This document shows positions 2,431 through 28,700 of a DNA stretch of 64,000 nt, piece by piece. Numbering within the stretch: the first letter of the stretch is position 1; each line of letters begins with the position of its first letter. This DNA comes from Nitrospirota bacterium (GTDB taxonomy: Bacteria; Nitrospirota; UBA9217). Location of the stretch: NCBI GenBank assembly GCA_029858565.1, contig JAOUEV010000002.1, positions 102,428 through 166,427 of the forward strand, read 5' to 3'. The translations under genes and the position numbers were made by a program. The notes under the pieces were generated by a model, which was not told where the DNA came from, made no database searches, and worked only from the letters and a program-made list of their open reading frames with translations.

Positions 2431-2476
2431 GGATTCAGGCCGCTTGAAGGGTAATTATTCTTTGAAGGGAAGCGGA

Positions 2477-4185: not shown

Positions 4186-4340
4186 CCATCCTCCTTCCGG
4201 TCGATTAGCAAGCCTGTTGAGCACCGAATTGCACTTAAGATAGCCGAGAAACCCGTTGTTTGTCAAGAGAATTCCTCGATGACGCCGGCGCAGGGAGCAT
4301 GTGGCGCTGCCCTTTACGCTCTATCCGCGGCATGTGTTGA

Positions 4341-4425
4341 CAGCGGACATGCGGTGACAGCGGACATGCGGTGACAGCGGACATGCGGTGACAGCGGACA
4401 TGCGGTGACAGCGGACATGCGGTGC
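4341..4425. repeat. 17-bp perfect tandem direct repeat x5 (cagcggacatgcggtga) in the divergent promoter region
   Basis: Read directly: five head-to-tail copies. The last copy ends in gtgc and runs into the GTG/ATG of the listed ORF 4405. A degenerate copy lies upstream (gcggcatgtgttga). Confidence 0.9.
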
Positions 4426-4464
4426 CTTGCTTTCCCTGGGCTATTTTGGTATTCTGCCGTCATC

Positions 4465-10764: not shown

Positions 10765-11433
10765 ATGTCTTTTATAACCATTGAGAAGGTGAGCAAGGAA
10801 TACGCAACGACCCGCGCGCTGAATGGCGTGGATTGCACGATCGGATCGGGCGAGTGGGTCAACATCATGGGGCCGTCGGGGTCGGGAAAAAGCACGCTTC
10901 TGAACATCCTCGGGGGACTCGACAGGCCCACCGAGGGCATTGTTACCATCAACAGCACGGACATCAACAGACTGTCGGAGGATGAACTTGCACGCTTTCG
11001 GCGGGAGACGATCGGTTTCGTGTTCCAGCAATCGCACCTGATACCTTACCTCGATGCCACCGAGAACGTGATGCTTGCCCAGTATTTCCACAGCATCCCA
11101 GACCGCGGGGAGGCAGAAGAGGCGCTGAAGCGCGTTGGACTGGGCCACCGCCTCCGGCATCGGCCGGCCGAGCTCTCGGGCGGCGAGCAGCAGCGCGTCG
11201 GGATCGCCCGCGCGCTGATCAACAATCCCAACCTGCTGCTCGCTGACGAACCGACCGGCAACCTTGACCGTTCCAATACCAGGAACATCCTCGAACTGCT
11301 CAAAGAGCTTCACGCCCAGGAAAAGTTCACCGTCGTAGTAGTGACCCACGACCCCTTTGTGTCCCAATGGGCCCGTCGGGTGATCTCCATGGAGGACGGA
11401 AGGATCATCAGGGATGAGCCGGTTCGTTCTTGA
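10765..11433 (+). CDS. ABC transporter ATP-binding protein (MacB/LolD-type)
   Basis: Walker [10 protein letters not shown], signature [15 protein letters not shown], Walker [13 protein letters not shown]. Start taken at [10 protein letters not shown] (Met7 of the listed ORF), with GAGGA 7 nt upstream. Confidence 0.9.
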
Positions 11434-12802: not shown

Positions 12803-13797
12803 AATCGATTGCCGCCCGAATATATGCATTTCTGCGCTCTGCTGCTCTCACGGTCTGGCTTGTGGGATTGTTCCTGTTCTATTATCTCTCGATGGCCGTG
12901 TGGAGCAATGAAGCTTTTGGTATGTACATTGTCCATCTTTCTTCGAATAACCTGTTTCGTGGGTTTTATCTTTTATTCCTCTCCAATGTGGTTCTTCGTC
13001 TCATAGAGAGACTGCAACGCCTTTGGTCAACAAGGGCGCAATTCATTCTCCAATTGCCCTTGTTGGTGGGGCTTTTGCTGTTCCTGCCGGCCTTGTTCCT
13101 GAGCTTGAACATGAGAAAGACACTGCGAACTCCACCGGTTGGCATGGGAGACATCATCACTGTTCCCCACGGCACGGAGAAGTATCAGATCCAGTCTGTT
13201 GAGCCTGCGCTCAAGAAACGCTCTCTCAGGAATGAAGGGGCCGCGGTCTTTGATTACGAACCGGGGCTCATGCTCCTGGATCCTCAGGGAAGAACGTACC
13301 GGGTCGGCGCTTTTCCTCCCAGTCCTGTCGGCTCAACCTATATGCATGTGCTGACATTCGGGATCGGCCCTGGTGTGGAACTTAAAAAGGGGAGAGAAGT
13401 GGTATTTCGCGGATATATAGCGTTGCAGTTGACGCCATTTGGAAATGTCGACGTTTTTGACAATTCTGATTTGCCCTATAAGTTCTATTTGAGCATAATT
13501 CCCAATAGTACAATAAGAAAAGGAAAGGAATCCGCGAATACGTATGACCTTGAGAAACCGCGGTATAATGTCACTGTCGTAAAGGAAGAACAGACCATTT
13601 TAAACGGGGAAACAGATTCTTCGATCAGAATTGATGAAAACCTCACTCTTTCGTTCTTTACGCCATCGGACTGGGTCATAGTTGAAGTTGTTCAAGATAG
13701 GTTTTTGCCATGGTTTGTTCTTTCGATATGCTTAATCTGCGTGGGAATTGTGCCCTTCCTCTTCTCAATGGTGATGTCTAAACTAAGGGCGAAGTGA
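12799..13797 (+). CDS. membrane protein, possibly a short ResB/Ccs1-like paralogue
   Basis: Start ATG overlaps the upstream stop (ATGA), giving MKSIAARIYAFLRSAALTVWLV. Three N-terminal TM helices, a ~200-aa soluble domain, and a C-terminal TM helix (WFVLSICLICVGIVPFLF). Topology and C-terminal region (DWVIVEVVQDRF) loosely resemble ResB. No CcsA partner. Confidence 0.4.
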   Translation: MKSIAARIYAFLRSAALTVWLVGLFLFYYLSMAVWSNEAFGMYIVHLSSNNLFRGFYLLFLSNVVLRLIERLQRLWSTRAQFILQLPLLVGLLLFLPALFLSLNMRKTLRTPPVGMGDIITVPHGTEKYQIQSVEPALKKRSLRNEGAAVFDYEPGLMLLDPQGRTYRVGAFPPSPVGSTYMHVLTFGIGPGVELKKGREVVFRGYIALQLTPFGNVDVFDNSDLPYKFYLSIIPNSTIRKGKESANTYDLEKPRYNVTVVKEEQTILNGETDSSIRIDENLTLSFFTPSDWVIVEVVQDRFLPWFVLSICLICVGIVPFLFSMVMSKLRAK

Positions 13798-14163
13798 ACG
13801 GCTTTTTATTTCGTTTGAAATGCGCAATAGTTGTCGTACATAAGTCCCTATCGGACGGCAGATTAGGATGAACTTGGCTAGTTATTGTTGAGGAACAAAA
13901 TTATTAGGTGTTTTTTTTATTAAATTTCATGGCATTATAAAAAAATTGCTTTGAGCATTATAAGTCTAGCATGTTTGAAAACCAACAAGGCTTTTGAGCG
14001 ATAACACTCAAAATAAGTCATTGGTGTCTTGTAATATAAAGCTAATATATTGATATTTAAAGAATGCCTATGCTGGTATATGAATTGCAAAGTATATTAA
14101 TTGAAAAAGTAATGTATATAAGCTTGGAAATCTATTAAACATATTGATTTTTAAGGAGAAGCG
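13798..14163 (+). promoter_or_regulatory. ~366-bp strongly AT-rich intergenic island; presumed promoter/regulatory region of the multiheme cytochrome operon
   Basis: Read directly: long A/T runs (ttttttttattaaatttcatggcattataaaaaaattg...), in sharp contrast with the GC-rich flanks. Ends with GGAG 6 nt before the ATG at 14164. Confidence 0.5.
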
Positions 14164-14964
14164 ATGGCCACTTGCAATAGATTCACGAAAACCAATCCCT
14201 TTATCTCATTGCTTGCGCTTGGCTTGGTTTGTGTATGTTTTGCTGCTCCGGTTGATGCGCTGACAATCGTCGGTAGCAAGCATGATTTTACATCGACTGC
14301 CTCGGGCACGAACAATTTCGCGGATAATTTCTTTGTGCCGGATCCGGCAACGGGATTCCCAACGCCGATCGATCAGGTCTGCGTTTTCTGTCATACGCCT
14401 CACCATGCAGCGCTCGGCGCAGCCGCCCCTCTGTGGAACAGGACCTCGTCGCCTCCTGATGCGACGTATACATTCAAAATGTATACAAGCGAGTCCTTCA
14501 CGTATGGTCCTGTTGGCGGTCCCACGGGCATCAGCGCCTTGTGCATGAGCTGCCATGATGGTGTATCGTCTATCGCGGTGAGCACGCTTCTGAACCCCCC
14601 GGGAGACGCGACGCCCGATCAGGTCACTACATCGATGTCCTCCAATGGTGCAATAGGTGCGGTGTATAATGGTGATCCTCTTACGAATGGATGGGGCGCG
14701 AACCTTGGTAATATTGACCCCTTGTTCCCGGGAACCAAGATCATAGACCTGAGCAACGATCATCCGATTTCATTCGTCTATCCGACCAGTGCTTCGGGCA
14801 TCTATCCTTCTACTTCGATAGATACTCGTCTCCGTCTCTTTGGTGCTAGCAAGGACATGGTCGAGTGTGCGACCTGTCATTTGGTGCACGACAACCAGTA
14901 CGAGCCTTTCCTGGCAATGCCGAACAACGGCAGCCAGATGTGTCTATCCTGTCATCAAAAATAG
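14164..14964 (+). CDS. tetraheme c-type cytochrome (doubled-CXXCH type)
   Basis: Signal peptide, then four CXXCH motifs: CVFCHTPHH, CMSCHDG, CATCHLVHD and CLSCHQK. GSKHDF precedes the first motif, as in the Geobacter doubled-CXXCH domain. Confidence 0.85.
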   Translation: MATCNRFTKTNPFISLLALGLVCVCFAAPVDALTIVGSKHDFTSTASGTNNFADNFFVPDPATGFPTPIDQVCVFCHTPHHAALGAAAPLWNRTSSPPDATYTFKMYTSESFTYGPVGGPTGISALCMSCHDGVSSIAVSTLLNPPGDATPDQVTTSMSSNGAIGAVYNGDPLTNGWGANLGNIDPLFPGTKIIDLSNDHPISFVYPTSASGIYPSTSIDTRLRLFGASKDMVECATCHLVHDNQYEPFLAMPNNGSQMCLSCHQK

Positions 14965-15045
14965 ATCCGGAACTGCAGCCATCTGTAGTCGGAAATATTT
15001 ATGAAGAATTATTTAAGAAGAGTGAACGCGGCCTCGGAGGTGGGT

Positions 15046-17787
15046 ATGAAAACGGTGAAGATTTCGATCATTCTGATGATTGCCATCGTGGCAGTGGCCA
15101 GTGCTGCCTTCGCGGCCCCGGTCCGGATCGGGACCCTGGAGCAGAATATCTCGGACCCTGTGCGGGTGGCTTTGGATGCTCAGGGGAATATATATGTGAC
15201 CGAGGCACAGCGCGACCTCGTCCTGGTTTATACCAGTAAAGGTCAGCATAAGACTGGCCTTTCGGTTCCTCGACCGCTCGGTGTTGCGGTTGACGGGAAC
15301 GGAACGATTTATGTAAGTTCTGGAAATCAGAGGACCAAAAACCCGGTGTATGTATTCACCCCGGACTTTGTGAAAGCCGGATGCCTGGGTGGGGCATCAT
15401 GCGCGGAATTTGTAAAGCCCATCGATGTGGCTGTTGATGGAAAAGGCAATGTGTATGTCGTAGACAATGACCCTGATTATAGTGTGGTCAAGGTGTATGA
15501 CGGTGCAGGCTCACTTATCCGTACGATTGCCGGCAGTGGCGCATCGCGGTTGAATAAACCCATGAGTGTTGCCATCGACGATACAGCCGGGGAAATCATA
15601 ATTTCCGATCAGCCGGATGTGATTGTTGCTGGTCAAAAGGCGATTGGCGCACGGATCCAGGCTTTTGATGGATCTGGAATTGCTGTGCGGACGATTGGTC
15701 AGTATGGGATCGAGGTCGGTCAGTTCAAAGAAGCTACAGATATTGCCATTGATGCCAAGGGGCAGCTGTATGTTACTGACGGCGCTTTGGGTGTCACTAA
15801 TATTATCAATGCCTCCGACGGGAACATCGTCGGTATTCTTTATGACGCCGGCAAGCCTGGTTATAACCCTAACGGTGTTGTGGTAAGCAAAAATGGACTT
15901 GCGTATGTGGTCATGCAAAAAGGCGAAGGCAGCAAGGGCAGGATTGACATTTACGCTCTTGAAGGATATGTGACGATGGCGGCTGCGCCTGCAGCGCTGA
16001 TGTTCGAGGCTCGGCAGTTCTCGGGCAATCCTTCCGCTCAGACGGTATCGGTAAGCAACAGCGGCAGCGGCACTCTCAACTGGACGGCATCGAAGAGCCA
16101 GTCGTGGATCGTGCTGGGGCAGGATGCAGGTACGGCGGGACCGAATGGATCTTCCGGTCTTCCCGTTGGTATAGACATCTCCGCGTTGAAGGCGGGAATT
16201 TATACAGGCACTGTTGCGGTCGTATCGGATTTCGGCCAGACGGAGTCAGTCGGTGTTTCTGTGAATGTGCTGAATCCGCTGATCCTGAATATCAGCAAGA
16301 GCACGATGACATTTACTGCTAAGAAGGGCAAAACAGCGGCTGCCCAGTCTCTTGCAACAGGGATCGACAACGTCACCACGGCAACGGCGTGGAGCGCGAA
16401 GTCCGATTCAACGTGGCTTTCTGTAACACCGGCATCGGGAACTGCGACTGCCGCGTCTGCGGTTGCTGGTGCAAACGTAACGATCAACACCGCTGGCATG
16501 GGTGTTGGAACCTATAAGGGTGCTATCACGGTATCTGCCCCCGGAGCTATCGGAGATGGCAGTGCTGTTATGGTTATGCTTACGATAACCCCGACCACGA
16601 AGATCACCGTAAATACGAACAATGAAAATGCCAAGTTCTCGGTAAGCGGCCCGTCGACATACAATGGTAGCGGCTCATCATGGAGTGTGGAAGATGTTCC
16701 TGCGGGCGATTATAAGGTCAACTTTGAGCCTGTTGCCGGCTATCGCAAACCGAAGGCAGCGATGGGGGCTGTCCCGGCGGATGGCGAGGTTTCCTTCTCG
16801 GGAAATTATACGTCCTTCGCTGATATTGCTGCGCGGCGGAATATCCTTGTGGCCGGTGCTCTTGGCGTAAAAGCGCGTGATTCTGAGGTCAGTGTGTATA
16901 GCAATACGGGTGCTCTTTCGCAGGCAATTGATCTGTCAGCGAATTACGGTGCCAGCGTGGCGGTCGCCGATGTTGACAATGACGGCGCAGAAGAGATTAT
17001 TGTTAGTGCCGCAGAAAAGGGGAGCAATCCCGCGACGGTTACGGTTATGAAAGCTGACAGGACCGTACTGAACAGCTTCGTTCCTTTTGCGAATGCCAAT
17101 GCTGTTCGGGTCGCGGCAGGAGACATGGATGGAAATGGGTCTGCGGAAATTGTCGTCATCCCAGCGCCTACCAGAAACGGCGCTGCCGGGACCGCAGCAG
17201 TGTATACCTACGACAGTGCGAGCGCGAAGATGATCGAAGTCGCGGCAGTGACCATGTATAAGAAGACGTCAATAGTTGACGTTGCTGTCGCGGATATTAA
17301 TGGTGATGGAAAAGCGGAACTTTTAACACTAGCCGCGTTTGAAGGAAAATCAGCAGGAATGGTAAAAGCCTGGAGCGTGAGCGCTGCAAAGGGTGGTTGG
17401 TCAGCAGCCTTGATCAACGATATCACCATGAACGGTGAAATGATGGGCGCTGCAGTGGCCGGTGGCGATGTCGATGGAGACGGTGTAAGTGAGATTATTG
17501 TCGGTTCCGCGGCAGATGCGGGTGGTATGCTGACCATCATTAAAGGCGACGGAACTCAGACGAAGGTGAAGGTCTTTGGCAGGAAGGATGTGGCTGGTAT
17601 GACGCTGGCCGTTGCTGACCTCGATGGCGACGGTAAGGCTGATCTCGTTGCGGCGCCTGTGCTTGAGAGTGGGAATGCGAAGAAGGATGGTGCGATCGAG
17701 GTCCTGAATTCGAATGGCACCTTGATGTTCTCGATCGATGTCAAGGCGGATGGTGCGAATGTTGCCATCGGTGAACTTGGTCTCTAA
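15046..17787 (+). CDS. secreted NHL-repeat beta-propeller / Ig-like x2 / PEGA-like / FG-GAP beta-propeller protein
   Basis: Start at Met16 of the listed ORF, with GGAGG 5 nt upstream and a signal peptide MKTVKISIILMIAIVAVASAAFA. NHL-like repeats: PRPLGVAVDGNGTIYVS and PIDVAVDGKGNVYVVD. Two Ig/BACON-like domains. FG-GAP repeats: VADVDNDGAEEIIVS, AGDMDGNGSAEIVV, VADINGDGKAELL, GGDVDGDGVSEIIVG and VADLDGDGKADLV. Confidence 0.8.
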   Translation: MKTVKISIILMIAIVAVASAAFAAPVRIGTLEQNISDPVRVALDAQGNIYVTEAQRDLVLVYTSKGQHKTGLSVPRPLGVAVDGNGTIYVSSGNQRTKNPVYVFTPDFVKAGCLGGASCAEFVKPIDVAVDGKGNVYVVDNDPDYSVVKVYDGAGSLIRTIAGSGASRLNKPMSVAIDDTAGEIIISDQPDVIVAGQKAIGARIQAFDGSGIAVRTIGQYGIEVGQFKEATDIAIDAKGQLYVTDGALGVTNIINASDGNIVGILYDAGKPGYNPNGVVVSKNGLAYVVMQKGEGSKGRIDIYALEGYVTMAAAPAALMFEARQFSGNPSAQTVSVSNSGSGTLNWTASKSQSWIVLGQDAGTAGPNGSSGLPVGIDISALKAGIYTGTVAVVSDFGQTESVGVSVNVLNPLILNISKSTMTFTAKKGKTAAAQSLATGIDNVTTATAWSAKSDSTWLSVTPASGTATAASAVAGANVTINTAGMGVGTYKGAITVSAPGAIGDGSAVMVMLTITPTTKITVNTNNENAKFSVSGPSTYNGSGSSWSVEDVPAGDYKVNFEPVAGYRKPKAAMGAVPADGEVSFSGNYTSFADIAARRNILVAGALGVKARDSEVSVYSNTGALSQAIDLSANYGASVAVADVDNDGAEEIIVSAAEKGSNPATVTVMKADRTVLNSFVPFANANAVRVAAGDMDGNGSAEIVVIPAPTRNGAAGTAAVYTYDSASAKMIEVAAVTMYKKTSIVDVAVADINGDGKAELLTLAAFEGKSAGMVKAWSVSAAKGGWSAALINDITMNGEMMGAAVAGGDVDGDGVSEIIVGSAADAGGMLTIIKGDGTQTKVKVFGRKDVAGMTLAVADLDGDGKADLVAAPVLESGNAKKDGAIEVLNSNGTLMFSIDVKADGANVAIGELGL

Positions 17788-17865
17788 TTCATGATCGTGA
17801 CCAGCATGAACATGAATGGAATTAAAAGATTGATACGGCGTACTCTGCAAGAAGGAGCGGTGACT

Positions 17866-20800
17866 ATGAAGAAATCTACTCTACTTACGATTTCAATTCT
17901 GATTATGCTGTTCGGCATGCTGATTGCCGTGCGGGACGTCGCGGCACTCGATGCCCCGCATAACGCGAACGACGTATCTCGGTCGATCACCTGCTCCACG
18001 TGCCACGTTTCTCCATTGGGACCGACCCCGACGTGGAAAACAATCCCGACGACCACGGACAATACCTATACAAACAATCTTTGTACAAGCTGTCACGCGA
18101 GCGGCAAGCTCACGACCAGCAAGTATGAGGATATTAAGACCCACTCTGCGGCGAACACGGGAAGCACCCGGTGGGGCGGTGGCTGGACGGTTGAGTGTCG
18201 TGTCTGCCATCATGCCCATAACCAGGCGCAGCAGACCACGTTCTATTCAGATGCTAATAATAATGTGCTGACCGGTACGGTGGCGGCGCTGACGTCGTCG
18301 GTATCTGCGACCATGTCCACGCTTACTGCGTCCGCGGGGTCGATGGGAACCGATGGTTACGTTGGTTACCTTCTTATCCCGAATACCGCATATCCTACGA
18401 TCATGTATCGTGTTATAGCCAATGACGCGACGAAGTTTACCGTGAAAGGTGCTATTAACCTGGCTCGTACGGCAGTGGGAAAGACCTGGGCACTGCGCTA
18501 CGGCAAAATGGTGAAAACGCAAATTGCCTATACGAACCCGACTTCGGTGAATGCCTCGGTCAAGTTCTACAATAATGCAGGCAACAATTCCTTTGCAGAA
18601 ACCGCGAGCCCATCAACATCCCTTTGCATGGTCTGTCATACCCAGACCAAGCATTTCAAGAATGACGGAACATTTGAGACTGCAGGTCATCCGGCAGCTG
18701 TCGGAACGGCCTGCACTTCCTGCCATAAACATAATACGGGCTTCAAGGCAAGCGGATGTAATGGCTGTCACGGCCAGAGCGGATCGACCGGCGCGCCTCT
18801 TGTTGCCGGTGATCTTGTCTCGCCAGCAACCGGCCACGCCGAAGGCGCACATCTGCGGCATGCGGTGACCCTGTCTCTGAGTTGTGCTGTCTGTCACGCT
18901 GGAAATACCATGCCTGCGCTCGACAGCGAGATAACCATGTCGTTCAGCGACGCGGCAGCAGGTGGAGCATATCAGGGCACTGCTCTCAACGCTCCTTACA
19001 CCTATAGCGCCAATGTCACCCTGGGCGGCACGCAAACCTGTTCCTCTTTATATTGCCATAGCTCGGGTCAGAGTGCCACGGGTGGTTCGCTTGCCGGCGG
19101 AGACTACAAGTCAGTGAACTGGACAGGAGCCGGCCTGAACTGCGGCAGCTGCCACGTTGATATGGATGCAAGCGCATCGGCAACTGGCAGCCATATTAAG
19201 CACGCACAGGATAAGGCCATTGCTTGTGCGACCTGCCATGATGGATACACAGAAACGTCAACGGCCGCGGCAACGCACGCAAATGCCTCGATCAATCTGA
19301 GCTTCAGCGGTAGGGCTGCTGGCTCGACATACTCCCAGGGAAACTCCCATGCTGTGCAGAACGGATACGGCCAGTGTTCAACGAACGATTGCCATAGCAC
19401 CGGCCAGGGTTCCGATGGCAGTTCGTCCGGCATTACCTATGCGTCTCCGACGTGGGGCGGAACGGTGAATTGCAGCTCCTGCCACAAGAACATGGATGCT
19501 GATGCGACCGCACCGGGCAGCCATGTGAAGCACGCGCAGAGCGCGGCGATTGCCTGCGCCACCTGTCACAACGGATACACCGAGACCACCGCAGCCGTGG
19601 CAACCCATGACGACGGCACGGTGGACATGAGCTTCAGCGGTCCGGGAGACGGCACGTTCTACACCGGCGGTACGACGAGCGGCAACTACGCGCTCGGCGG
19701 CGGTTACGGTTCTTGCTACACCAGCTCCTGCCACAGCTCGGGCCAGTCCGCCACGGGTACGGCCTCGCCGCTGACCTATGGTTCACCGGTATGGGGCGGT
19801 ACCTTGGACTGCGGTTCCTGCCACACGAACATGGATACTGATGCGACCGCACCGGGCAGCCACGTGAAGCATGCCCAGAGCGCGGCCATCGCTTGCGCCT
19901 CCTGTCACAGCGGTTACACTGAGACCACGGTTGCGGTTGCAACGCATAATAACTCGACAGTCAACGTGACGATGGCGACCGGCTTCTACACCGGCGGCAC
20001 AACGAGCGGCAACAACGCGCTCGGCGGCGGCTATGGTTCCTGCTACACCAGCTCCTGCCACAGCTCGGGCCAGTCAGCCACGGGTACGGCCTCGCCGCTG
20101 ACCTATGGTTCTCCGGCATGGGGAGGTACACTGGACTGCGGCTCCTGCCATAAGAACATGGATACTGATGCGACCGCACCGGGCAGCCACGTGAAGCATA
20201 CCCAGAGCGCGGCCATCGCTTGCGCAACCTGTCACAACGGTTACACCGAGACCTCGGTTGCCGCGGCATCGCATAACAACGGCACGGTGGATATGAGCTT
20301 CAGCGGGACGGGTGCCGGGACGTTCTACAGCGGCGGCACAGTGAGCGGCGACAACGCGCTCGGCGGCGGCTACGGTTCCTGCTACACCAGCTCCTGCCAC
20401 AGCTCAGGCCAGTCAGCGACGGGTACGGCATCACCGTTGACCTACGGCTCTCCTGCGTGGGGCGGAGCGCTGGATTGCGGCTCCTGCCACAAGAACATGG
20501 ATACGGATGGAACTGCGCCGGGAAGCCACGTTGGCCATGCACAGACAGCGGCGATTGCGTGCGCAACCTGCCACAGCGGGTACACCGAGACGACGGTTGC
20601 GGCTGCAACGCATAATAACTCGACAGTCAACGTGACGATGTCGACCGGCTTCTACAGCGGCGGCACGGTTTCGGGTGACAATGCGCTGGGCGGCGGTTAT
20701 GGAACCTGTTTCACAACGAACTGCCATGGCTCATCCTCACCCGTCTGGGGCACGAACACCACGAATGCTTCCTGTACGAAGTGCCATGGTGTTTCCGGCG

Positions 20801-21747
20801 CAACCCCTGCGCAGTATACCGCGGATAACAATATAGCGGCGCCTGGATATGTTTCTGTCGCTCCGGTCGGTACCGGTCGCGCAACATCTGGTGCGACAGC
20901 TGCGACAGATCCGAAGGTCGGAGCTCATAACGCACACCTTAAGGGCGTGAGCAACTATTCGGATCCCATTGCCTGCAGCGCCTGCCACAATACGTCATCA
21001 GGGCACATGGATGGTTCCGGCACACTGACATTCAGCGGTTTGTCTACATCGAACGGCGCCGCTGCAAATTATAGCGCGCCGAATTGTTCAACAACCTACT
21101 GTCATTTCGGTAAATCGATCAATTTGTACTCGCCGGCAGTTTCGAGCGCTACAGTGACCTGGAATGATACGGCTTACCTGAGCGGCACACCGAGCATCGG
21201 CGGAGACTGCGCGAAGTGCCATCTCTCACCGCCTTCGGCAACAGGGACCCATGCAGGCTACAGCACCTTCACAGACTGCAACACCTGTCATCCTCATGTG
21301 AGCACAGACGGTACGTTCAACAACAAATCGCTGCATATCAACGGCGTAGTCGAAGCCGCAAGCGGTTGCGACGGCTGCCACGCATATCCGCCTGCAATAG
21401 GCGACGGCAAGGCGTATAAGGGTTCCGCGCTGCTCGGTAAAGGAGCGCATACATCCCATGTCAACTATCTCCTCCTGAGGACCGGATTGACCCTTAGCGC
21501 TAAGGGTGATACTTATACCGGTGCAACGGTTGCGGCGATCTGCGGCGTTTGTCACAACACGTCAGCCGATGCCTTCCATAAGAATGGCAATGATGTCCGT
21601 GACCTCCTGATCCCATCGTCTTACCTCTTTGGTACGGGGACGCCGACATATAACGGGAATCCCGCGACTACGACCAATAAGAACTGCTCGAATGTCAGCT
21701 GCCATTTCAATGTAACTCCGCTGTGGCAGCAGACCGCGGGTCAGTAA
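17866..21747 (+). CDS. giant multiheme c-type cytochrome (~31 heme-binding motifs: 23 CXXCH + 8 CX4CH; Geobacter-type CX4CH...CXXCH repeat domain)
   Basis: Start at Met26 of the listed ORF, with AAGGAG 8 nt upstream and signal peptide MKKSTLLTISILIMLFGMLIAV. Motifs counted by eye include CSTCH, CTSCH, CRVCH, CMVCH, CSSLYCH, CGSCH, CATCH, CYTSSCH x3, CFTTNCH, CSTTYCH and CSNVSCH. Triheme module CX4CH-CXXCH-CXXCH repeated about six times. Confidence 0.9.
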   Translation: MKKSTLLTISILIMLFGMLIAVRDVAALDAPHNANDVSRSITCSTCHVSPLGPTPTWKTIPTTTDNTYTNNLCTSCHASGKLTTSKYEDIKTHSAANTGSTRWGGGWTVECRVCHHAHNQAQQTTFYSDANNNVLTGTVAALTSSVSATMSTLTASAGSMGTDGYVGYLLIPNTAYPTIMYRVIANDATKFTVKGAINLARTAVGKTWALRYGKMVKTQIAYTNPTSVNASVKFYNNAGNNSFAETASPSTSLCMVCHTQTKHFKNDGTFETAGHPAAVGTACTSCHKHNTGFKASGCNGCHGQSGSTGAPLVAGDLVSPATGHAEGAHLRHAVTLSLSCAVCHAGNTMPALDSEITMSFSDAAAGGAYQGTALNAPYTYSANVTLGGTQTCSSLYCHSSGQSATGGSLAGGDYKSVNWTGAGLNCGSCHVDMDASASATGSHIKHAQDKAIACATCHDGYTETSTAAATHANASINLSFSGRAAGSTYSQGNSHAVQNGYGQCSTNDCHSTGQGSDGSSSGITYASPTWGGTVNCSSCHKNMDADATAPGSHVKHAQSAAIACATCHNGYTETTAAVATHDDGTVDMSFSGPGDGTFYTGGTTSGNYALGGGYGSCYTSSCHSSGQSATGTASPLTYGSPVWGGTLDCGSCHTNMDTDATAPGSHVKHAQSAAIACASCHSGYTETTVAVATHNNSTVNVTMATGFYTGGTTSGNNALGGGYGSCYTSSCHSSGQSATGTASPLTYGSPAWGGTLDCGSCHKNMDTDATAPGSHVKHTQSAAIACATCHNGYTETSVAAASHNNGTVDMSFSGTGAGTFYSGGTVSGDNALGGGYGSCYTSSCHSSGQSATGTASPLTYGSPAWGGALDCGSCHKNMDTDGTAPGSHVGHAQTAAIACATCHSGYTETTVAAATHNNSTVNVTMSTGFYSGGTVSGDNALGGGYGTCFTTNCHGSSSPVWGTNTTNASCTKCHGVSGATPAQYTADNNIAAPGYVSVAPVGTGRATSGATAATDPKVGAHNAHLKGVSNYSDPIACSACHNTSSGHMDGSGTLTFSGLSTSNGAAANYSAPNCSTTYCHFGKSINLYSPAVSSATVTWNDTAYLSGTPSIGGDCAKCHLSPPSATGTHAGYSTFTDCNTCHPHVSTDGTFNNKSLHINGVVEAASGCDGCHAYPPAIGDGKAYKGSALLGKGAHTSHVNYLLLRTGLTLSAKGDTYTGATVAAICGVCHNTSADAFHKNGNDVRDLLIPSSYLFGTGTPTYNGNPATTTNKNCSNVSCHFNVTPLWQQTAGQ
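19040..21030 (+). repeat. tandem ~327-339-bp DNA repeats (about six units; four near-identical between ~19376 and 20706) encoding triheme cytochrome modules
   Basis: tgctacaccagctcctgccacagctc recurs at ~19714, 20041 and 20380. cataataactcgacagtcaacgtgacgatg recurs exactly ~660 bp apart. Long and short unit variants alternate, suggesting a ~660-bp higher-order repeat. Confidence 0.8.
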
Positions 21748-21881
21748 GGGAGGGTGTGGACGTGTATACCGTACTGAGGTATAATAGCCAGCCTGCATGC
21801 AAGGCTGCAGTTCATAATCAGAAACGCTCAGCCGCATCCGTGGAATCGACCGGCAGAGCTCTTACAGAAGGCGAGGTACTT

Positions 21882-24425
21882 ATGATGAAGAAAGCTTGTA
21901 ACGATAGCGCGGTAAGCCGGCTCACATGGCTGGGGCTTGCGGTAGTCCTGATCATGCTGATCTCCGCATTCGTTGCTGTACCTCAGGCAACAGCCGGAAC
22001 GTATACGGTAGATACGTGCGGCGATTGCCACGCATACTCCACGGGAACGTTCACGGACGGTTCGGCCCGGAATAATCCGGCCGGCGCCTTCCCGGGCTCG
22101 CATCAACAGCATGTGACGACCTACCAGATGGCCTGCACGGTCTGTCACATCAACAACGGAGCTAATTTTGCCCATCGGAACGGCAATGTTGATATAAATG
22201 CCTCGATCAGCGGAGGCACATACAGCAAAGGTTCATTCTCCCAGGTTAATACGACATCTCTGGGTCGGTGCACTAACGTCTCTTGCCATAGCAACGGAAC
22301 CCCGCTGAACGGTACAGCAACATTCGCAACAGCGACCTGGGGTTCTCCGGCAACAGGTGCTTGCGGAACCTGCCACGGCGTCCTGGCTTCCAGCGCTCCG
22401 ACCTCAACGCATCACAGCAAACACGTGGGAGCTGCTGCGGGATATCAAAACGCCTGCGGTTGGTGCCATAGCAGCACGGTGAACATGACAGCGAATTCAA
22501 CCGTTCAGGCGACGGTCACTTCAACTACGCTGCATGTCAACGGAATCAAGAACGTCTCCTTTGAAACCACCACGAACGCCGGGGCGAACGCCTACGGAAG
22601 CGGGCAGGCCTATAGCTGCACCAACCTCTACTGTCATAGCCAGGGGAACACGTTCACATCACCCTATACAGCGCCGAACACGACAGCGCTCTGGACATTG
22701 GCTGCAGGTTCGCTGAACTGCAACAGCTGCCATGGTTCGACCGTAGCAACAACCACTCGCGGTAATGGCAAGCCTGAGTACGCCAACGGCACGCCGAAGA
22801 AGAACAGCCATGCGGGCCATTTCCCGTGGAACACGCTCCAGTCCTGCCAGATCTGCCATTCGGCAACGACCACGGACGGGGTGAGCGTTACGAACAAAGC
22901 GAACCATGTGAAGAAGTCCTACAACGTGGGTTCCTACACGGGAGGCGGTGCCTGGAACACCTTGGCAAACTTCACCTATACCTATAATGCCAATGGCAGC
23001 ACCTGTAATACCAACCAGTGCCATGCTGGGCTGAACGCACAGTGGGGCTCGACAGGAGCCGGCTCCGGCAGCGAATGGAACTGCATTACCTGCCACTCCA
23101 GCTCGTTCAAGAAGTTCCTCGGCACGGGAACGATCCGGCAGGTTGTCGGTACGACCAACGCCGCTGATTTCAACATGTCAACGATCGGGAACGGCGCAGG
23201 TTCGCGTCACCTGTACGGTGCTTCGACAATCGTGAAATGGGACTGCATCATCTGTCACGAGGAAGGTCAGGCAACGGGCGCTCCTGGAAGGGTTGACTGG
23301 CAGAACCATAATGACTTGGGCGGCTTGATCCATCTGCGGAACGTGGACACGATCGATCCTGCGAACTCGGGCTGGGCGATTAACAACAAGTCCTGGACGA
23401 CGACCGATTATCAGAGTATGGACGAGTTCTGCGTCTCTTGCCATGATTCCAACGGGGCAAGCGCGATCGCGGTGAATGCTGCGAACAACGGACTCTTCAC
23501 CGGCACTGCTGCCTGGAACACCTATCGTGCAGGCTGGAAATCAATGGCAGGAACTTTCCCCGGCAGGGCAGCCCTGGCACCGTTCAACTCCACGGACTGG
23601 CGTTCTGGTTATCTGGTTGCATCCACCTCGTCAGTAGGCGCCGGCGAGGGCAGAGCAAAGATCACTGACGTGAAGACCCAATTCTACGCAGGTACTGCAG
23701 GCAACTGGGCGACAACGAACTACAACGGCAATCCGTCGCAGCACGCGGTGCTCGGTACCCGGTACGGCCGGGCCTGGAACACCTGGACCGCCGCAGCCTG
23801 GTCGAGCTACTTCATGAAGAAGTCTCGTGCGAACATCAACGCCATGCGTGAGACCGCGCTACTCTCATGCGCTGACTGTCACGTGCTCGATGCTCCAGGT
23901 GTGGGCGGCAATGCTCATAGCGGTACAGTGAAATACATGCTGTCTACAGTCACTAGTGATGGCATCTGCACAAAGTGTCATTCGACAACTGCCTACGCTG
24001 CGGCGAGCGCTATATCCCGGTGGAATCACAGCTACTCAAGAGGCGGTTACAATGCCTATGGTCTTTCCAACGCAGCAGGTACGGGTTCTCAGCTCGCCTG
24101 TATGATGTGCCATGCTGGCTGGCAGATAGAGTCAACGGTCTCGAGACAGAGGAGCTACGGCGGCATCCATGGATCCTGGACGACCTTCTATCCCATGAGC
24201 ACGGTAGGAAGTGGAAACCTGACGACCTACCGGTTCTTCCCCGGGACCTGGAGAAAGCATTCATATAGTGCTGATAACCAGTGGGGCTCCATGACAGCTT
24301 CGACCTGTTACTTCGGGGCTACAACCGATAATAGCGGATTTGCGAGCTGTACGTCACATGGAAGCGCGACCGGCAGAACTGGAACGACGTACACGCCGAC
24401 GTACACGCGTCCGGTCAAGTACTAA
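21882..24425 (+). CDS. multiheme c-type cytochrome (~15 heme motifs: 12 CXXCH + 3 CX4CH)
   Basis: Start at MMKKACNDSAVSRLTWLGLAVVLIML (Met54 of the listed ORF), with GAGG upstream. Motifs CGDCH, CTVCH, CTNVSCH, CGTCH, CGWCH, CTNLYCH, CNSCH, CQICH, CNTNQCH, CITCH, CIICH, CVSCH, CADCH, CTKCH and CMMCH. Confidence 0.85.
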   Translation: MMKKACNDSAVSRLTWLGLAVVLIMLISAFVAVPQATAGTYTVDTCGDCHAYSTGTFTDGSARNNPAGAFPGSHQQHVTTYQMACTVCHINNGANFAHRNGNVDINASISGGTYSKGSFSQVNTTSLGRCTNVSCHSNGTPLNGTATFATATWGSPATGACGTCHGVLASSAPTSTHHSKHVGAAAGYQNACGWCHSSTVNMTANSTVQATVTSTTLHVNGIKNVSFETTTNAGANAYGSGQAYSCTNLYCHSQGNTFTSPYTAPNTTALWTLAAGSLNCNSCHGSTVATTTRGNGKPEYANGTPKKNSHAGHFPWNTLQSCQICHSATTTDGVSVTNKANHVKKSYNVGSYTGGGAWNTLANFTYTYNANGSTCNTNQCHAGLNAQWGSTGAGSGSEWNCITCHSSSFKKFLGTGTIRQVVGTTNAADFNMSTIGNGAGSRHLYGASTIVKWDCIICHEEGQATGAPGRVDWQNHNDLGGLIHLRNVDTIDPANSGWAINNKSWTTTDYQSMDEFCVSCHDSNGASAIAVNAANNGLFTGTAAWNTYRAGWKSMAGTFPGRAALAPFNSTDWRSGYLVASTSSVGAGEGRAKITDVKTQFYAGTAGNWATTNYNGNPSQHAVLGTRYGRAWNTWTAAAWSSYFMKKSRANINAMRETALLSCADCHVLDAPGVGGNAHSGTVKYMLSTVTSDGICTKCHSTTAYAAASAISRWNHSYSRGGYNAYGLSNAAGTGSQLACMMCHAGWQIESTVSRQRSYGGIHGSWTTFYPMSTVGSGNLTTYRFFPGTWRKHSYSADNQWGSMTASTCYFGATTDNSGFASCTSHGSATGRTGTTYTPTYTRPVKY

Positions 24426-24456
24426 CAGCTTCGAGGTCTTGAAGGCAACAAATGTA

Positions 24457-24496
24457 GCGGAGGCTCATATGAGCCTCCGCTTTTTTTTTGTTTTTT
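24457..24496 (+). terminator. rho-independent terminator of the cytochrome operon
   Basis: Perfect hairpin gcggaggctca-ta-tgagcctccgc followed by a run of 9 T, then gtttttt, ~30 nt after the stop codon. Confidence 0.85.
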
Positions 24497-25109: not shown

Positions 25110-26348
25110 CTACGGCAATGACGGTGAAGAAAGCAGGTAACTGTAGAGAAAAGCAGGGACCATGCGTCCGGTGACGAATGGATACAGATAAAGCCCCCAG
25201 ACTGCAGTGAGGCAAAAGAGAATACTAAAGACCTTTCGGGATCGGCCAGAGCCCATGGTCAAAGATGCAAGCGAGTACGCGATCAGTAGATAGGCAAATG
25301 GCAGCACCGCAAAGGCTGAATAGAGGAACACCGGACGCTTCACCAGGATGAACTGTAAGTACGATGAAGCAAAGAGCAGCAAGACCAGGGGGAGGCTCCG
25401 CTCTCTGCGTTGATACGCATAATACAGCCCATAGACCGCAGCAGGTATGGTCAGGAGCCAGATCGGCGGATTGCTCATGAAGGTGAAGAACTTTCCCCAC
25501 CCGGCATTCACGAAGATCGGTTCGCCGTGTATCAGCGGCTTGACGAACCAGTGCCAGGGAACTGATGGCGAAGAACTAAAGAATTTATCAACAAAGGAAT
25601 CAAGCGCCATGGCCTGGAGGGTATGGTAGGCGTCCTTTTGCCATATGATGAAGTCGAGTAGGTTGGACCCCCGTTTGAACCAGGGATACATCAGGAGTAA
25701 GTAAACGCCTCCAGCGACCACGCCTGACGACGCAAGGTAAGTTGAGCTGAGGATTCGGTCTTGCCCGTCACGGTTCGACCAGATCCGGAGGAGAAGATAG
25801 GCGAAGACAGCGAGAGTCGGCAGGACAAAATACCATTTGCCGGAAAGCGCCAGTCCGAGGGGGATCCCTGCCCATGCCAGTGCGCGCTCGTTCCCCTGCA
25901 TATACAGGGCGATCGCGTAGACAAAGAGCAGGAAGAAGAAGATCGGAATTATTTCCATGAAGTTGGTGCGAGATAGGGAAATATGGAAAGGCTCGATGGC
26001 AAAGAAAAGGCCGGAGAGCCAGGCGACGCGCCGGTCCTCGAAGAGTCGCAGGGCAAGCAGCAAGAGCATCAGCACGGAGAGGCTACCGAAGAGGACGTTC
26101 GGCAGCCGCCAGCCATAGGCATTGTTTCCAAAGAGTTTGATGCCGATCGCGGTCACATGGAAGTTCAAGGGCGGATGGAGCCAGACGACCGGGGCGTAGA
26201 GGCCGTTCTTCTGGAAGTTCTCTGCAGCGGGGATGAACTGGAATTCATCGCCGATGACGTATGGCGGTTCGCCGACGCTCCAGACGCGAAGGGCAAAGGC
26301 CAAGAGAAACAGCAGCAGCACGGTATTCCGATTGTTAAAACGTTCCAT
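25110..26348 (-). CDS. GT-C glycosyltransferase family 39, protein O-mannosyltransferase (PMT)-like
   Basis: Loop-1 signature DEFQFIPAAENF...HPPLNFHVTAIGIKLFGNNAYGWRLPNVLFGSLSVLMLLLLALRLF matches the bacterial Pmt pattern DE..F..A....HPPL.K..A.G..LFG.N..GWR...A.FG. Polytopic, 412 aa. Confidence 0.75.
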   Translation of the reverse strand: MERFNNRNTVLLLFLLAFALRVWSVGEPPYVIGDEFQFIPAAENFQKNGLYAPVVWLHPPLNFHVTAIGIKLFGNNAYGWRLPNVLFGSLSVLMLLLLALRLFEDRRVAWLSGLFFAIEPFHISLSRTNFMEIIPIFFFLLFVYAIALYMQGNERALAWAGIPLGLALSGKWYFVLPTLAVFAYLLLRIWSNRDGQDRILSSTYLASSGVVAGGVYLLLMYPWFKRGSNLLDFIIWQKDAYHTLQAMALDSFVDKFFSSSPSVPWHWFVKPLIHGEPIFVNAGWGKFFTFMSNPPIWLLTIPAAVYGLYYAYQRRERSLPLVLLLFASSYLQFILVKRPVFLYSAFAVLPFAYLLIAYSLASLTMGSGRSRKVFSILFCLTAVWGLYLYPFVTGRMVPAFLYSYLLSSPSLP

Positions 26349-27285
26349 CAGCCTTCCTCAGGTCTGAGATGAATTCGACGGCATGGGTGCCGGAGACGGT
26401 CAGAAGGTCGCAGGTGAGCTTTCCGCGCAGGAGCGGGAGGAGCATCCCGCGCTCCTCTGCCGAGACGCTGTCAGCCTGGAGATTGACGATCACCGGCTCT
26501 TTCAGTCCGGGGAAGTCCTGGAAGCGCATGATCCTGACCGAGATCCCTTCCGCAATGGTCATCCTGAAGCTTCCGCCTGAAGATTCCACGGTCTTGCTGT
26601 TCCCGAGCACTGAGGCGACCGTCTCCCACGCAGTGTCCGAAATGAGGTGATAGACCTTGCGGACCATGCCCGACCGGACGGCCTGGTGCACGTAGTTCCC
26701 GGCTACGATGTGGTACTCCGGCCGTTTTGGACAGTGGTCCGGGTAGGAGTGTTCGAGGATGAGCCTGTTGAGCCGCGCGTAGTCGTCAGCGCTGTTGCGT
26801 GGTATCGGGACCGAGAACGAGTCTGTCAGGGCCAGGTAGCCGGCAAGGCTCGTGATCTGCCCGGATGGATCGGGAAGCCCTTTTCTCAGGAACAGGGGAT
26901 AAAGGCTGAATCGCCTCAGGACGTCAGTGTTCAAGCCCTTGATCGTACAGGAGAAGGTGTCCTGTACGCTTCCCTGCAGGTCCGTCCTGAGCGCATCGCA
27001 GAGCCGGTTCAGGCTTGCCGTATCTCTGAATTCAGTGTCCTGGAACTCATCGGTCCTGTCCTCGATGTCAGCATTCAGATGCCTGTCTATGAGCACGAGC
27101 GTCCTGCCGTGCATCCCCTGCTCGCGCCAGACAGCAAAAGCATCTTGGGGAACGTTCACCTGCCTGACCAGCGGGGAGGGCAGGATCGTCCGGTGCGATG
27201 CGCCGTATTGCTGCAGGAACAGCAGGACACTGATGCAGAACAGGAGCGATATTGCTATGACCGCGATCTTCGATTCCTTGCTCAT
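26335..27285 (-). CDS. membrane-anchored protein of an uncharacterised GT39-associated family (member 1)
   Basis: N-terminal TM anchor. Shares EPVIVN(L/V).(A/D) ... VSG(T/S) blocks with the proteins at 38801..39508 and 41120..42562. Overlaps the downstream GT39 gene by 14 nt. Confidence 0.5.
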   Translation of the reverse strand: MSKESKIAVIAISLLFCISVLLFLQQYGASHRTILPSPLVRQVNVPQDAFAVWREQGMHGRTLVLIDRHLNADIEDRTDEFQDTEFRDTASLNRLCDALRTDLQGSVQDTFSCTIKGLNTDVLRRFSLYPLFLRKGLPDPSGQITSLAGYLALTDSFSVPIPRNSADDYARLNRLILEHSYPDHCPKRPEYHIVAGNYVHQAVRSGMVRKVYHLISDTAWETVASVLGNSKTVESSGGSFRMTIAEGISVRIMRFQDFPGLKEPVIVNLQADSVSAEERGMLLPLLRGKLTCDLLTVSGTHAVEFISDLRKADGTF

Positions 27286-28697: not shown

Positions 28698-28700
28698 AGC

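What the first reader, a model, noticed from the sequence alone, without database searches (positions are those of the whole stretch)
19040..21030. Giant cytochrome is built from near-identical ~330-bp tandem DNA repeats (triheme cassettes)
Directly visible: the CX4CH-CXXCH-CXXCH module recurs about six times. The central four copies are close to identical at the nucleotide level. The 26-mer tgctacaccagctcctgccacagctc occurs three times, and a 30-mer is exactly duplicated ~660 bp apart. Long and short unit variants alternate, so the structure is a higher-order ~660-bp repeat. Such arrays are hot spots for unequal recombination, so the heme-wire length is probably variable between strains. They are also a classic site of assembly collapse or expansion, so the true copy number in the organism may differ.
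Basis: seen in the sequence. Interest (0 to 1): 0.6.

Follow-up and report, generated by a model that had tools for sequence, protein, structure and literature searches.

The report
Repeat-built 31-heme cytochrome, copy number disputed
A giant 31-heme electron-carrying protein of a Nitrospirota bacterium is built from repeated three-heme modules, a known design, but the repeats are old and only 67-86% alike, and two assemblies of essentially the same genome disagree by exactly one module.

Summary
The array is real. Window 19039-20706 holds five in-frame tandem cassettes (336, 339, 327, 339, 327 bp), followed by two diverged ones. They lie inside one gene (17866-21747, 1293 aa, 31 heme motifs). 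NCBI already annotates it as a CxxxxCH/CxxCH (TIGR01904) cytochrome of a Nitrospirota MAG.

"Near-identical" is overstated. The central units are 67-86% identical in DNA and the longest exact repeat is 46 nt. Most unit pairs are near saturation at synonymous sites (dS 0.75-1.8) and under purifying selection. Unit U2 is a recombinant mosaic with 9 private bases. The ~660-bp higher-order pattern holds only in the last third of each unit.

The copy-number concern is borne out. An ENA MEGAHIT contig matches the window over 23.9 kb except for one SNP and a clean 327-bp loss of U2, joined inside a 35-nt exact repeat. Two Logan (k=31) contigs of run SRR7132115 break to the base where only a U2-containing genome would branch, so the window's longer version is real. 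Two other family members show the same one-cassette disagreement between otherwise identical contigs. Eight diverged ortholog pairs keep their cassette number. I therefore favour assembly collapse over true polymorphism, about 55:35. This is an ordinary member of a known family and a useful assembly caveat.

The parts
14164..14964 (+). First gene of the operon: a secreted 266-aa tetraheme c-type cytochrome (4 CXXCH, paired-CXXCH domain)
   Evidence: A 39%-identical homologue sits at the same position in L016, and one is also present in L001.
15001..17787 (+). 928-aa secreted NHL / BACON / FG-GAP beta-propeller protein with no heme motifs
   Evidence: Pfam hits. It is 38.5% identical over its full length to the gene at the same position in L016. 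An NHL protein also lies upstream of the cytochrome in L013/L014 and L001.
17866..21747 (+). 31-heme CxxxxCH/CxxCH-domain cytochrome, 1293 aa from M26 (the ORF opens at 17791). It has an N-terminal signal peptide MKKSTLLTISILIMLFGMLIAVRDVAA. It equals NCBI MDH4161402.1 (Nitrospirota MAG).
   Evidence: (TIGR01904: 155 bits against a cut-off of 27, 7 stretches).
19039..19374 (+). Cassette U0 (336 bp, 112 aa), 54-60% DNA identity to U1-U4
19375..19713 (+). Cassette U1 (339 bp, long variant)
19714..20040 (+). Cassette U2 (327 bp, short variant). It is a mosaic: the front resembles U3 (92-98%), the middle resembles U4 (94-96%) and the tail resembles U1, with 9 private bases. This is the unit missing from the ENA contig.
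20041..20379 (+). Cassette U3 (339 bp, long variant)
20380..20706 (+). Cassette U4 (327 bp, short variant)
20707..21366 (+). Diverged cassettes U5 (20707-21084) and U6 (21085-21366), under 50% DNA identity to the others
19714..19748 (+). 35-nt exact repeat, also at 20041-20075, within which the 327-bp deletion junction lies. Logan contig L012 ends at 19743, which is k-1 = 30 nt into it.
20604..20640 (+). 37-nt exact repeat shared only with U2 (19938-19974). Logan contig SRR7132115_214589 starts at 20611, immediately after its last shared 31-mer.
21882..24425 (+). Second TIGR01904 cytochrome: 15 heme motifs, about 847 aa from the MMKK start (the ORF opens at 21723)
24456..24481 (+). Intrinsic-terminator-like hairpin (11 bp stem, 8 GC pairs) followed by a T8 run, closing the four-gene operon

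Best explanation
**What it is.** The region is the middle of one gene for a secreted 31-heme c-type cytochrome of the CxxxxCH/CxxCH (TIGR01904 / PF09698) family, in a Nitrospirota MAG. The protein is a chain of triheme cassettes of about 110 aa each.

**What each cassette contains.** Each carries CX4CH, CXXCH and CXXCH. It also carries three conserved free histidines (two invariant, one in at least 90% of sequences) and one invariant tryptophan. That is enough ligands to make all three hemes bis-His electron-transfer hemes.

**How it probably works (inferred).** Concatenated cassettes give a continuous intramolecular heme wire. Each cassette adds three hemes. The gene is the third of a conserved four-gene operon: tetraheme cytochrome, NHL/BACON/FG-GAP propeller, this cytochrome, then a 15-heme paralogue. 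The operon presumably moves electrons through the periplasm or beyond the cell.

**How the array arose (shown).** It formed by in-frame tandem duplication. Most duplications are old and are held by purifying selection. Unequal recombination or gene conversion has reshuffled the units, and U2 is a three-parent mosaic.

**Copy number.** Because short exact stretches (up to 46 nt) persist between units, the array is a place where copy number is miscalled or truly changes by whole cassettes. The window's version, which includes U2, is genuine. The one-cassette-shorter version in an independent assembly is most likely a short-read collapse, and less likely a real deletion allele formed within the 35-nt identity.
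For: - **Family and anatomy:** TIGR01904 at E 2.8e-46 with 7 stretches, PF09698 and Cytochrome_C7 hits, and 31 motifs. NCBI names it a CxxxxCH/CxxCH domain-containing protein of a Nitrospirota bacterium.
- **Conserved residues per cassette:** C1, C6, H7, W27, C33, C36, H37, H50, C61, C64, H65 and H78 are invariant, and H53 is present in at least 90%, across 42 two-cassette segments.
- **Old duplicates under constraint:** dS 0.75-1.8 and dN/dS 0.05-0.38. Only the front of U2/U3 is younger, at dS 0.18.
- **Mosaic U2 with 9 private bases**.
- **Family-wide amplification:** 15 of 116 homologues have cassettes at least 80% identical, some 100% identical, amplified in 1-, 2- or 3-cassette steps. One of these is in a complete Geotalea uraniireducens genome.
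- **Concerted evolution in P0104:** paralogous units are 98% identical but only 79-81% identical to the orthologous units of P0119.
- **Copy-number discordance:** ENA contig k141_362376 equals window 7866-31747 apart from A17905G and a 327-bp deletion.
- **The longer allele is real:** the 4-cassette allele has no repeated 31-mer, whereas the 5-cassette allele has 35. Logan contigs of SRR7132115 end at 19743 and start at 20611, exactly at the predicted k=31 branch points. The second of these was predicted before the look-up.
- **Operon conservation:**. **Terminator:**
Against: - No structure supports the wire geometry. The AF2 full-length model is poor (pLDDT 51) and the two-cassette model is only moderate (pLDDT 68.9). 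Foldseek found no PDB match and no solved homologue is detectable by sequence.
- Localisation (periplasmic or extracellular) and function are inferred from family and context only. No porin gene was recognised next to the operon.
- It is not proven that ERZ27296335 was assembled from SRR7132115. Collapse and real polymorphism therefore cannot be separated.
- The two contigs do differ elsewhere: a SNP at 17905 and a variable 17-bp repeat region at 4.2-4.5 kb. This leaves room for two genuine genotypes.
Confidence: 0.8

Rival explanations
1. **Genuine strain-level or within-population length polymorphism.** RecA-mediated or slippage-type recombination between the 35-nt identical starts of U2 and U3 deleted one cassette in frame. 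On this reading, 28-heme and 31-heme alleles of the wire coexist or distinguish strains.
For: - The deletion is exactly one cassette and in frame, with its junction inside the longest local identity.
- The two contigs carry other real differences (A17905G; clustered SNPs and a different 17-bp repeat tract at 4277-4471). They are therefore not one consensus.
- Recombination between cassettes demonstrably happens in this family, as shown by mosaic U2 and concerted evolution in P0104.
- MEGAHIT at k=141 should resolve repeats whose exact stretches are no longer than 46 nt (assembler behaviour from general knowledge).
Against: - The Logan graph shows that U2 is present in the same run that carries the ENA contig's G allele.
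- All three one-cassette indels found are between contigs with 0-1 substitutions over 11-24 kb, from different pipelines, and in one case with near-identical contig coordinates. That looks like re-assembly of the same reads.
- Eight ortholog pairs diverged by 5-17% in protein sequence show no cassette-number change.
- dS of 0.18 between U2 and U3 means U2 long predates the split of these two near-identical genomes.
Confidence: 0.35
2. **Pure assembly collapse.** The organism has a fixed five-cassette array (U0-U4) and the MEGAHIT contig dropped U2 while traversing the repeat graph at low k.
For: - Logan break points show U2 in SRR7132115.
- Analogous discordances occur in two other loci. In one of them the junction lies in a 139-nt exact repeat that a k=141 assembly of short reads cannot resolve.
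- Cassette number is stable among diverged orthologs.
- The fronts of U2 and U3 are 92-98% identical over about 190 nt, which is bubble-like at low k.
Against: - Exact repeats here reach only 46 nt, well below k=141.
- In one of the three cases the k141 assembly is the longer one, so there is no systematic collapse.
- The link between ERZ27296335 and SRR7132115 is inferred only from one shared SNP.
Confidence: 0.55
3. **The window itself is over-expanded.** On this reading U2 is a chimeric path stitched from U3, U4 and U1 by the assembler, and the true gene has four clear cassettes.
For: U2 is a mosaic of its neighbours, and an independent assembly lacks it.
Against: - U2 has 9 bases found in no other unit.
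- The exact protein is deposited in both NCBI and JGI/IMG.
- Two Logan contig ends fall to the base on branch points that exist only if U2-type sequence is in the reads.
Confidence: 0.05

Closest known systems
CxxxxCH/CxxCH-domain multiheme cytochromes (TIGR01904 / Pfam PF09698 GSu_C4xC__C2xCH), first defined in Geobacter sulfurreducens
   Same: It has the same domain, at 155 bits against a cut-off of 27, in 7 copies. It has the same CX4CH...CXXCH spacing and the same many-copies-per-protein architecture. Homologues from Geotalea, Geomobilimonas, Desulfuromonas and Nitrospirota carry 2-16 CX4CH and 13-54 hemes.
   Different: The host is a Nitrospirota MAG. The specific cassette has a third CXXCH and three conserved distal His. 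No member of the family has a solved structure or a tested function that I could find.
GSU1996-type 'nanowire' cytochromes (polymers of triheme c7-type domains; PDB 3OV0)
   Same: The concept is the same: a single polypeptide made of concatenated triheme modules, thought to arise by duplication (PMC11492766). Pfam Cytochrome_C7 matches 4 stretches.
   Different: There is only a weak profile match to 3ov0 (E 1e-4). The cassette here starts with CX4CH and is about 110 aa rather than about 75. Ligation is predicted as all bis-His, whereas c7-type domains of GSU1996 have one His-Met heme (from memory).
PCC3 extracellular and periplasmic multiheme cytochromes of Gallionellaceae, and the Uet cluster of Tenderiales/Gallionella
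   Same: Homologous clusters there have widely variable heme counts (10-35) and are modelled as long linear wires. Uet clusters combine a tetraheme cytochrome, NHL-repeat proteins and larger cytochromes (PMC10734462), resembling the operon here.
   Different: No porin gene was recognised beside this operon. Homology to PCC3 or Uet proteins was not tested.
'Grafting and pruning' modular evolution of multiheme cytochromes (Soares et al. 2022, PMC9250108)
   Same: Heme number changes by gain or loss of whole modules.
   Different: That work concerns ancient events between families. Here the event, if real, is a single-cassette change between genomes that differ by one SNP in 24 kb.

Membership tests
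TIGR01904 / PF09698 CxxxxCH/CxxCH-domain cytochrome | Whole-protein HMM score above the curated cut-off | tested here: met
   TIGR01904.2 scores 155.2 bits (cut-off 27), E 2.8e-46, 7 stretches. PF09698 scores 34.8 bits (cut-off 21.7).
TIGR01904 / PF09698 CxxxxCH/CxxCH-domain cytochrome | CX4CH followed about 30 residues later by CXXCH, repeated several times per protein | tested here: met
   There are 8 CX4CH. In U0-U4 each is followed by a CXXCH 32-34 residues later (22 and 41 in the diverged U5 and U6). Cassette spacing is 109-113 aa.
TIGR01904 / PF09698 CxxxxCH/CxxCH-domain cytochrome | Export signal and covalent heme attachment at every motif | not testable with these tools
   An N-terminal signal-like sequence is visible. 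Heme loading needs biochemistry.
c7-type domain polymers (GSU1996 family) | Detectable homology of the repeating unit to the cytochrome c7 / GSU1996 domains | tested here: inconclusive
   Pfam Cytochrome_C7 gives E 1.5e-25. The profile against PDB gives only E 1e-4 to 3ov0 over about 40 residues. Foldseek found no hits.
Recently amplified (near-identical) tandem repeat / contingency locus | Units near-identical at DNA level (>95%) with long exact repeats | tested here: not met
   Identity is 67-86%, the longest exact repeat is 46 nt and dS is 0.18-1.8.
Recently amplified (near-identical) tandem repeat / contingency locus | Copy number varies among cells or strains | tested here: inconclusive
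   There is a one-cassette difference between two assemblies. However, the longer allele is present in the run that shares the shorter contig's SNP. Reads are needed to decide.
Higher-order (two-cassette) repeat | Lag-2 identity clearly above lag-1 identity across the unit | tested here: not met
   Mean lag-1 is 0.62 and lag-2 is 0.60 in this protein. The pattern is true only for the last third of each unit. True 2- and 3-cassette higher-order repeats exist in relatives P0037, P0051 and P0002.
Porin-cytochrome EET module (Mtr/Pcc/PCC3/Uet-like) | Outer-membrane beta-barrel porin gene adjacent to the cytochromes | tested here: inconclusive
   No porin family was found in ORFs 11414-14964 or 25110-27285. 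The 371-aa ORF upstream has no Pfam match. No dedicated beta-barrel predictor was available.

The most novel reading that the evidence does not exclude
In-frame gain and loss of whole triheme cassettes happens fast enough in natural Nitrospirota and Geobacterales populations that 28-heme and 31-heme alleles of the same cytochrome coexist. That would make heme-wire length a standing, selectable, contingency-like trait. The one-cassette discordances seen in three independent loci would then be real population heterogeneity that different assemblers resolve differently.
Probability: 0.3. Interest if true: 0.6.

Novelty: new member of a known kind. Interest (0 to 1): 0.3.

Why it matters
For annotation, heme counts and lengths of giant multiheme cytochromes taken from short-read MAGs can be wrong by whole cassettes. 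Three of roughly 17 near-identical contig pairs in this family disagreed by exactly one cassette. Comparative statements about heme number per protein should therefore be checked against reads or long reads.

For biology, if the length variants are real they would show that the reach or capacitance of an electron-transfer wire can be tuned by simple recombination. They would also give a natural series of 3-heme increments for testing how conductance scales with length.

The conserved operon (tetraheme cytochrome, NHL/BACON/FG-GAP propeller, two TIGR01904 cytochromes) is a candidate extracellular electron-transfer module in Nitrospirota that nobody has characterised.

Tried and rejected
- **Sequence search of the full protein against PDB:** no hit. 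The two-cassette profile gave only weak, motif-driven hits to NrfA, OcwA, GSU1996 and reaction-centre cytochromes.
- **AF2 of the 1184-aa short allele with 40 full-length homologues:** pLDDT 51, unusable except for an N-terminal beta domain.
- **Scans of genome contigs and metagenome contigs** found no further close relative of this gene; the best hits were 39-45% identical. Copy number could therefore not be compared across more strains.
- **Exact look-up of the 1293-aa product in the contig index** found nothing, although the protein is in the cluster table.
- **Literature:** searches for SRR7132115 and for TIGR01904/PF09698 gave no functional or provenance information.
- **Rejected: the idea that U2 is an assembler chimera.** It has private bases and matches the Logan break points.
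- **Rejected: the idea of a clean 660-bp higher-order repeat**.
- **Not pursued:** one large align_proteins call failed and was repeated with fewer sequences.
Full report
**1. What is in the sequence**

The interval lies inside a single + strand ORF, 17791-21747. The likely true start is M26 at 17866 (MKKSTLL..., a signal-peptide-like N-terminus). That start gives a 1293-aa product whose exact sequence is NCBI MDH4161402.1, [quoted passage not shown], on a 183,872-bp contig.

The protein has 31 heme-attachment motifs, 23 CXXCH and 8 CX4CH. It scores 155 bits against TIGR01904 (cut-off 27) with seven matched stretches. It also hits PF09698, Cytochrome_C7 and Cytochrom_c3_2.

Taking each cassette from the first Cys of CX4CH, the units are:

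| Unit | Coordinates | Length | Note |
|---|---|---|---|
| U0 | 19039-19374 | 336 bp | |
| U1 | 19375-19713 | 339 bp | long variant |
| U2 | 19714-20040 | 327 bp | short variant |
| U3 | 20041-20379 | 339 bp | long variant |
| U4 | 20380-20706 | 327 bp | short variant |
| U5 | 20707-21084 | 378 bp | diverged |
| U6 | 21085-21366 | 282 bp | diverged |

**2.

- The tandem array is real and far beyond chance. TRF gives period 339, 3.5 copies, 82% matches and score 1544.
- The 26-mer occurs exactly three times, against zero in 100 shuffles.
- The "30-mer ~660 bp apart" is a 37-mer at 19938 and 20604.
- Long and short units do alternate.

"Close to identical" is not correct:
- Pairwise DNA identity among U1-U4 is 67-86%. 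U0 is 54-60% identical to the others.
- The longest exact repeat is 46 nt.
- Nei-Gojobori estimates put most unit pairs at dS 0.75-1.8 with dN/dS 0.05-0.38. These are old duplicates under purifying selection.
- The only young segment is the front of U2 against U3 (dS 0.18; 92-98% identity over about 190 nt).

U2 is a mosaic. Its front matches U3, its middle carries the short-variant loop of U4 (94-96%), and its tail matches U1. It also has nine bases found in no other unit.

The "higher-order 660-bp repeat" holds only in the last third of each unit. Over whole units, mean lag-1 protein identity is 0.62 and lag-2 is 0.60.

**3. Surroundings**

The gene is third in a four-gene + strand operon:
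- a secreted tetraheme cytochrome (14164-14964);
- a 928-aa NHL/BACON/FG-GAP propeller protein (15001-17787);
- this cytochrome;
- a 15-heme TIGR01904 paralogue (about 21882-24425).

The operon is closed by a strong terminator-like hairpin at 24456-24481. The same gene order, with 37-39% identical products, is found around homologue P0018/P0162 (L015/L016). The tetraheme and NHL genes also precede the cytochrome in L001. An NHL protein precedes P0045 as well.

**4. The cassette and how it probably works**

I aligned 42 two-cassette segments from the window and from homologues. In every cassette the following are invariant: CX4CH, a Trp 20 residues later, the first CXXCH, a His 13 residues after it, the second CXXCH, and a His 13 residues after that. 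A further His is present in at least 90% of sequences.

So each cassette offers three attachment motifs and three free His. That is the arithmetic of three bis-His electron-transfer hemes. I infer that concatenated cassettes form a continuous intramolecular heme chain, as proposed for modular "wire" cytochromes (PMC11492766; PMC10734462).

This inference is not shown structurally:
- AF2 on the full-length short allele was poor (pLDDT 51).
- AF2 on two cassettes was moderate (pLDDT 68.9).
- Foldseek found no PDB neighbour.
- Sequence and profile searches found no solved homologue beyond motif-level matches.

**5. Copy number: the key result**

The nearest database protein, P0001 (1184 aa), comes from ENA assembly ERZ27296335, contig k141_362376 (305 kb). 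A global alignment shows that the contig equals window 7866-31747 except for two things: one substitution (A17905G, M to V in the signal peptide) and a clean 327-bp deletion corresponding to U2. The deletion junction can lie anywhere in the 35-nt exact repeat 19714-19748 / 20041-20075.

**6. Which version is real?**

- U2's nine private bases argue that it is not a chimeric path.
- A third, independent assembly exists: Logan contigs of run SRR7132115, which carry the same G at 17905 as the ENA contig.
- Logan assembles at k=31 (my knowledge of that resource).
- I computed that the 4-cassette allele contains no repeated 31-mer in this gene, whereas the 5-cassette allele contains 35.
- Logan contig L012 ends at 19743, exactly k-1 = 30 nt into the 35-nt repeat.
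- I then predicted that, if U2 is in those reads, another contig should begin at 20611. That is the first 31-mer after the 37-nt repeat that U4 shares only with U2. Its truncated gene product should be translate(20611-21747).
- The exact look-up found it: SRR7132115_214589 equals window 20611-23227.

Two base-exact break points that only a U2-containing genome produces show that the window's longer array is genuine sequence in that population. An "assembly expansion" in the window is therefore very unlikely.

**7. Is the shorter version real too?**

This cannot be decided without reads, because every 31-mer of the short allele is also in the long allele.

For a real allele:
- The two contigs differ elsewhere. 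There are clustered SNPs and a different 17-bp repeat tract at 4277-4471.
- k=141 should resolve repeats with exact stretches of 46 nt or less.

For a collapse:
- Cluster look-ups on 20 further homologue clusters gave roughly 17 (near-)identical full-length pairs in all. Two more of these showed a clean one-cassette indel.
  - P0045/P0122: 303 bp, junction in a 63-nt exact repeat, 0 substitutions in 11.6 kb.
  - P0018/P0162: 303 bp, junction in a 139-nt exact repeat, 0 substitutions in 10.9 kb, with almost the same contig coordinates.
- Each case pits an ENA k141 contig against a JGI or NCBI contig, which looks like re-assembly of the same reads.
- The shorter version is the ENA one in two cases and the JGI one in the third.
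- Eight ortholog pairs that differ by 5-17% in protein sequence all keep the same cassette number. That is not what fast, fixable length change would give.

I therefore put assembly collapse at about 0.55 and a real co-occurring or strain-specific deletion at about 0.35.

**8. Recombination in the family is nevertheless real**

- Fifteen of 116 homologues contain cassettes at least 80% identical, and several contain 100% identical ones. Amplification is in 1-cassette steps (P0045, P0050), 2-cassette steps (P0037, P0051 from a complete Geotalea uraniireducens genome, P0104) or 3-cassette steps (P0002).
- In P0104 two paralogous cassettes are 98% identical but only 79-81% identical to the orthologous cassettes of P0119. 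This is a signature of gene conversion or re-amplification after divergence.
- Heme counts in the family run from 13 to 54.

**9. Comparison with what is known**

This is a member of the TIGR01904/PF09698 family, and all testable defining features are met. It works like the modular wire cytochromes discussed for Geobacter GSU1996 and for PCC3 of Gallionellaceae, where homologues with 10-35 hemes are already described. It also fits the "grafting and pruning" view of multiheme cytochrome evolution.

It is not a recently amplified, near-identical repeat, and it is not a clean higher-order repeat.

What this analysis adds is modest. It documents base-exact, in-frame, one-cassette discordance between assemblies at three loci. 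It also offers a k-mer-graph argument that validates the longer allele here.

**10. Verdict**

This is an ordinary, already-annotated kind of gene. The assembly warning is justified. The window's copy number is supported. True strain-to-strain length variation remains possible but unproven.

Interest 0.3; new member of a known kind.

Noticed in passing
window 4327-4424 (context 4277-4471): There is a 17-bp tandem repeat (GCGGACATGCGGTGACA, 5.8 copies, 96% matches) in the intergenic region just upstream of a PAS/HAMP sensor histidine kinase gene (about 4465-6633). The ENA contig of the otherwise near-identical genome is 42 nt shorter here, has no perfect copy of the unit, and carries several clustered SNPs. 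This is a second hypervariable or assembler-discordant repeat.
   Followed up: partly
window 14164-24481; L016 406-11177; L001 ~2400-5800: The four-gene order is conserved at 37-39% protein identity in another lineage: tetraheme cytochrome, then NHL/BACON/FG-GAP propeller, then a TIGR01904 cytochrome, then a second TIGR01904 cytochrome. It is partly conserved in a Nitrospiraceae MAG. This is a candidate uncharacterised electron-transfer module. No porin gene was recognised next to it.
   Followed up: partly
P0104 vs P0119 (homologues; Desulfuromonadia-type): Cassettes 2 and 4 of P0104 are 98% identical to each other but only 79-81% identical to the orthologous cassettes of P0119. This suggests concerted evolution (gene conversion or re-amplification) inside the array after the lineages split.
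   Followed up: partly
window 18253-18510 (residues ~130-215 of the mature-start numbering): A beta-strand-rich insert between heme motifs 3 and 4 is the only part of the full-length AF2 model predicted with confidence (pLDDT 85-93). It has no heme motif and could be a binding or docking domain.
   Followed up: no
window 12001-16000: G+C drops to 0.48-0.50, against 0.56-0.62 in the flanking sequence. The dip spans the unannotated 371-aa membrane ORF, the tetraheme gene and the start of the NHL gene. It could mark a horizontally acquired segment.
   Followed up: no
window 21723-24425 vs L005 14293-16233: The ENA gene call for the second cytochrome (646 aa) starts well inside the ORF. It omits a signal-peptide-like start (MMKKACNDS..., about 21882) and the first heme motifs, so the public call is probably 5'-truncated.
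   Followed up: no
window 23228-23345: Logan contigs of SRR7132115 leave a 118-nt gap inside the second cytochrome gene. One contig ends at 23227 and the next starts at 23346, although no repeated 31-mer exists there within the window. The cause is unknown; possibilities are a repeat elsewhere in the metagenome, a variant or low coverage.
   Followed up: no
window 25110-32745 (- strand): A divergently oriented cluster encodes a PMT-family glycosyltransferase, two B12-binding radical SAM proteins, an amine-oxidase/NAD-binding protein and a GDSL lipase. It is identical in the ENA and Logan contigs. Any link to the cytochrome operon is unknown.
   Followed up: no
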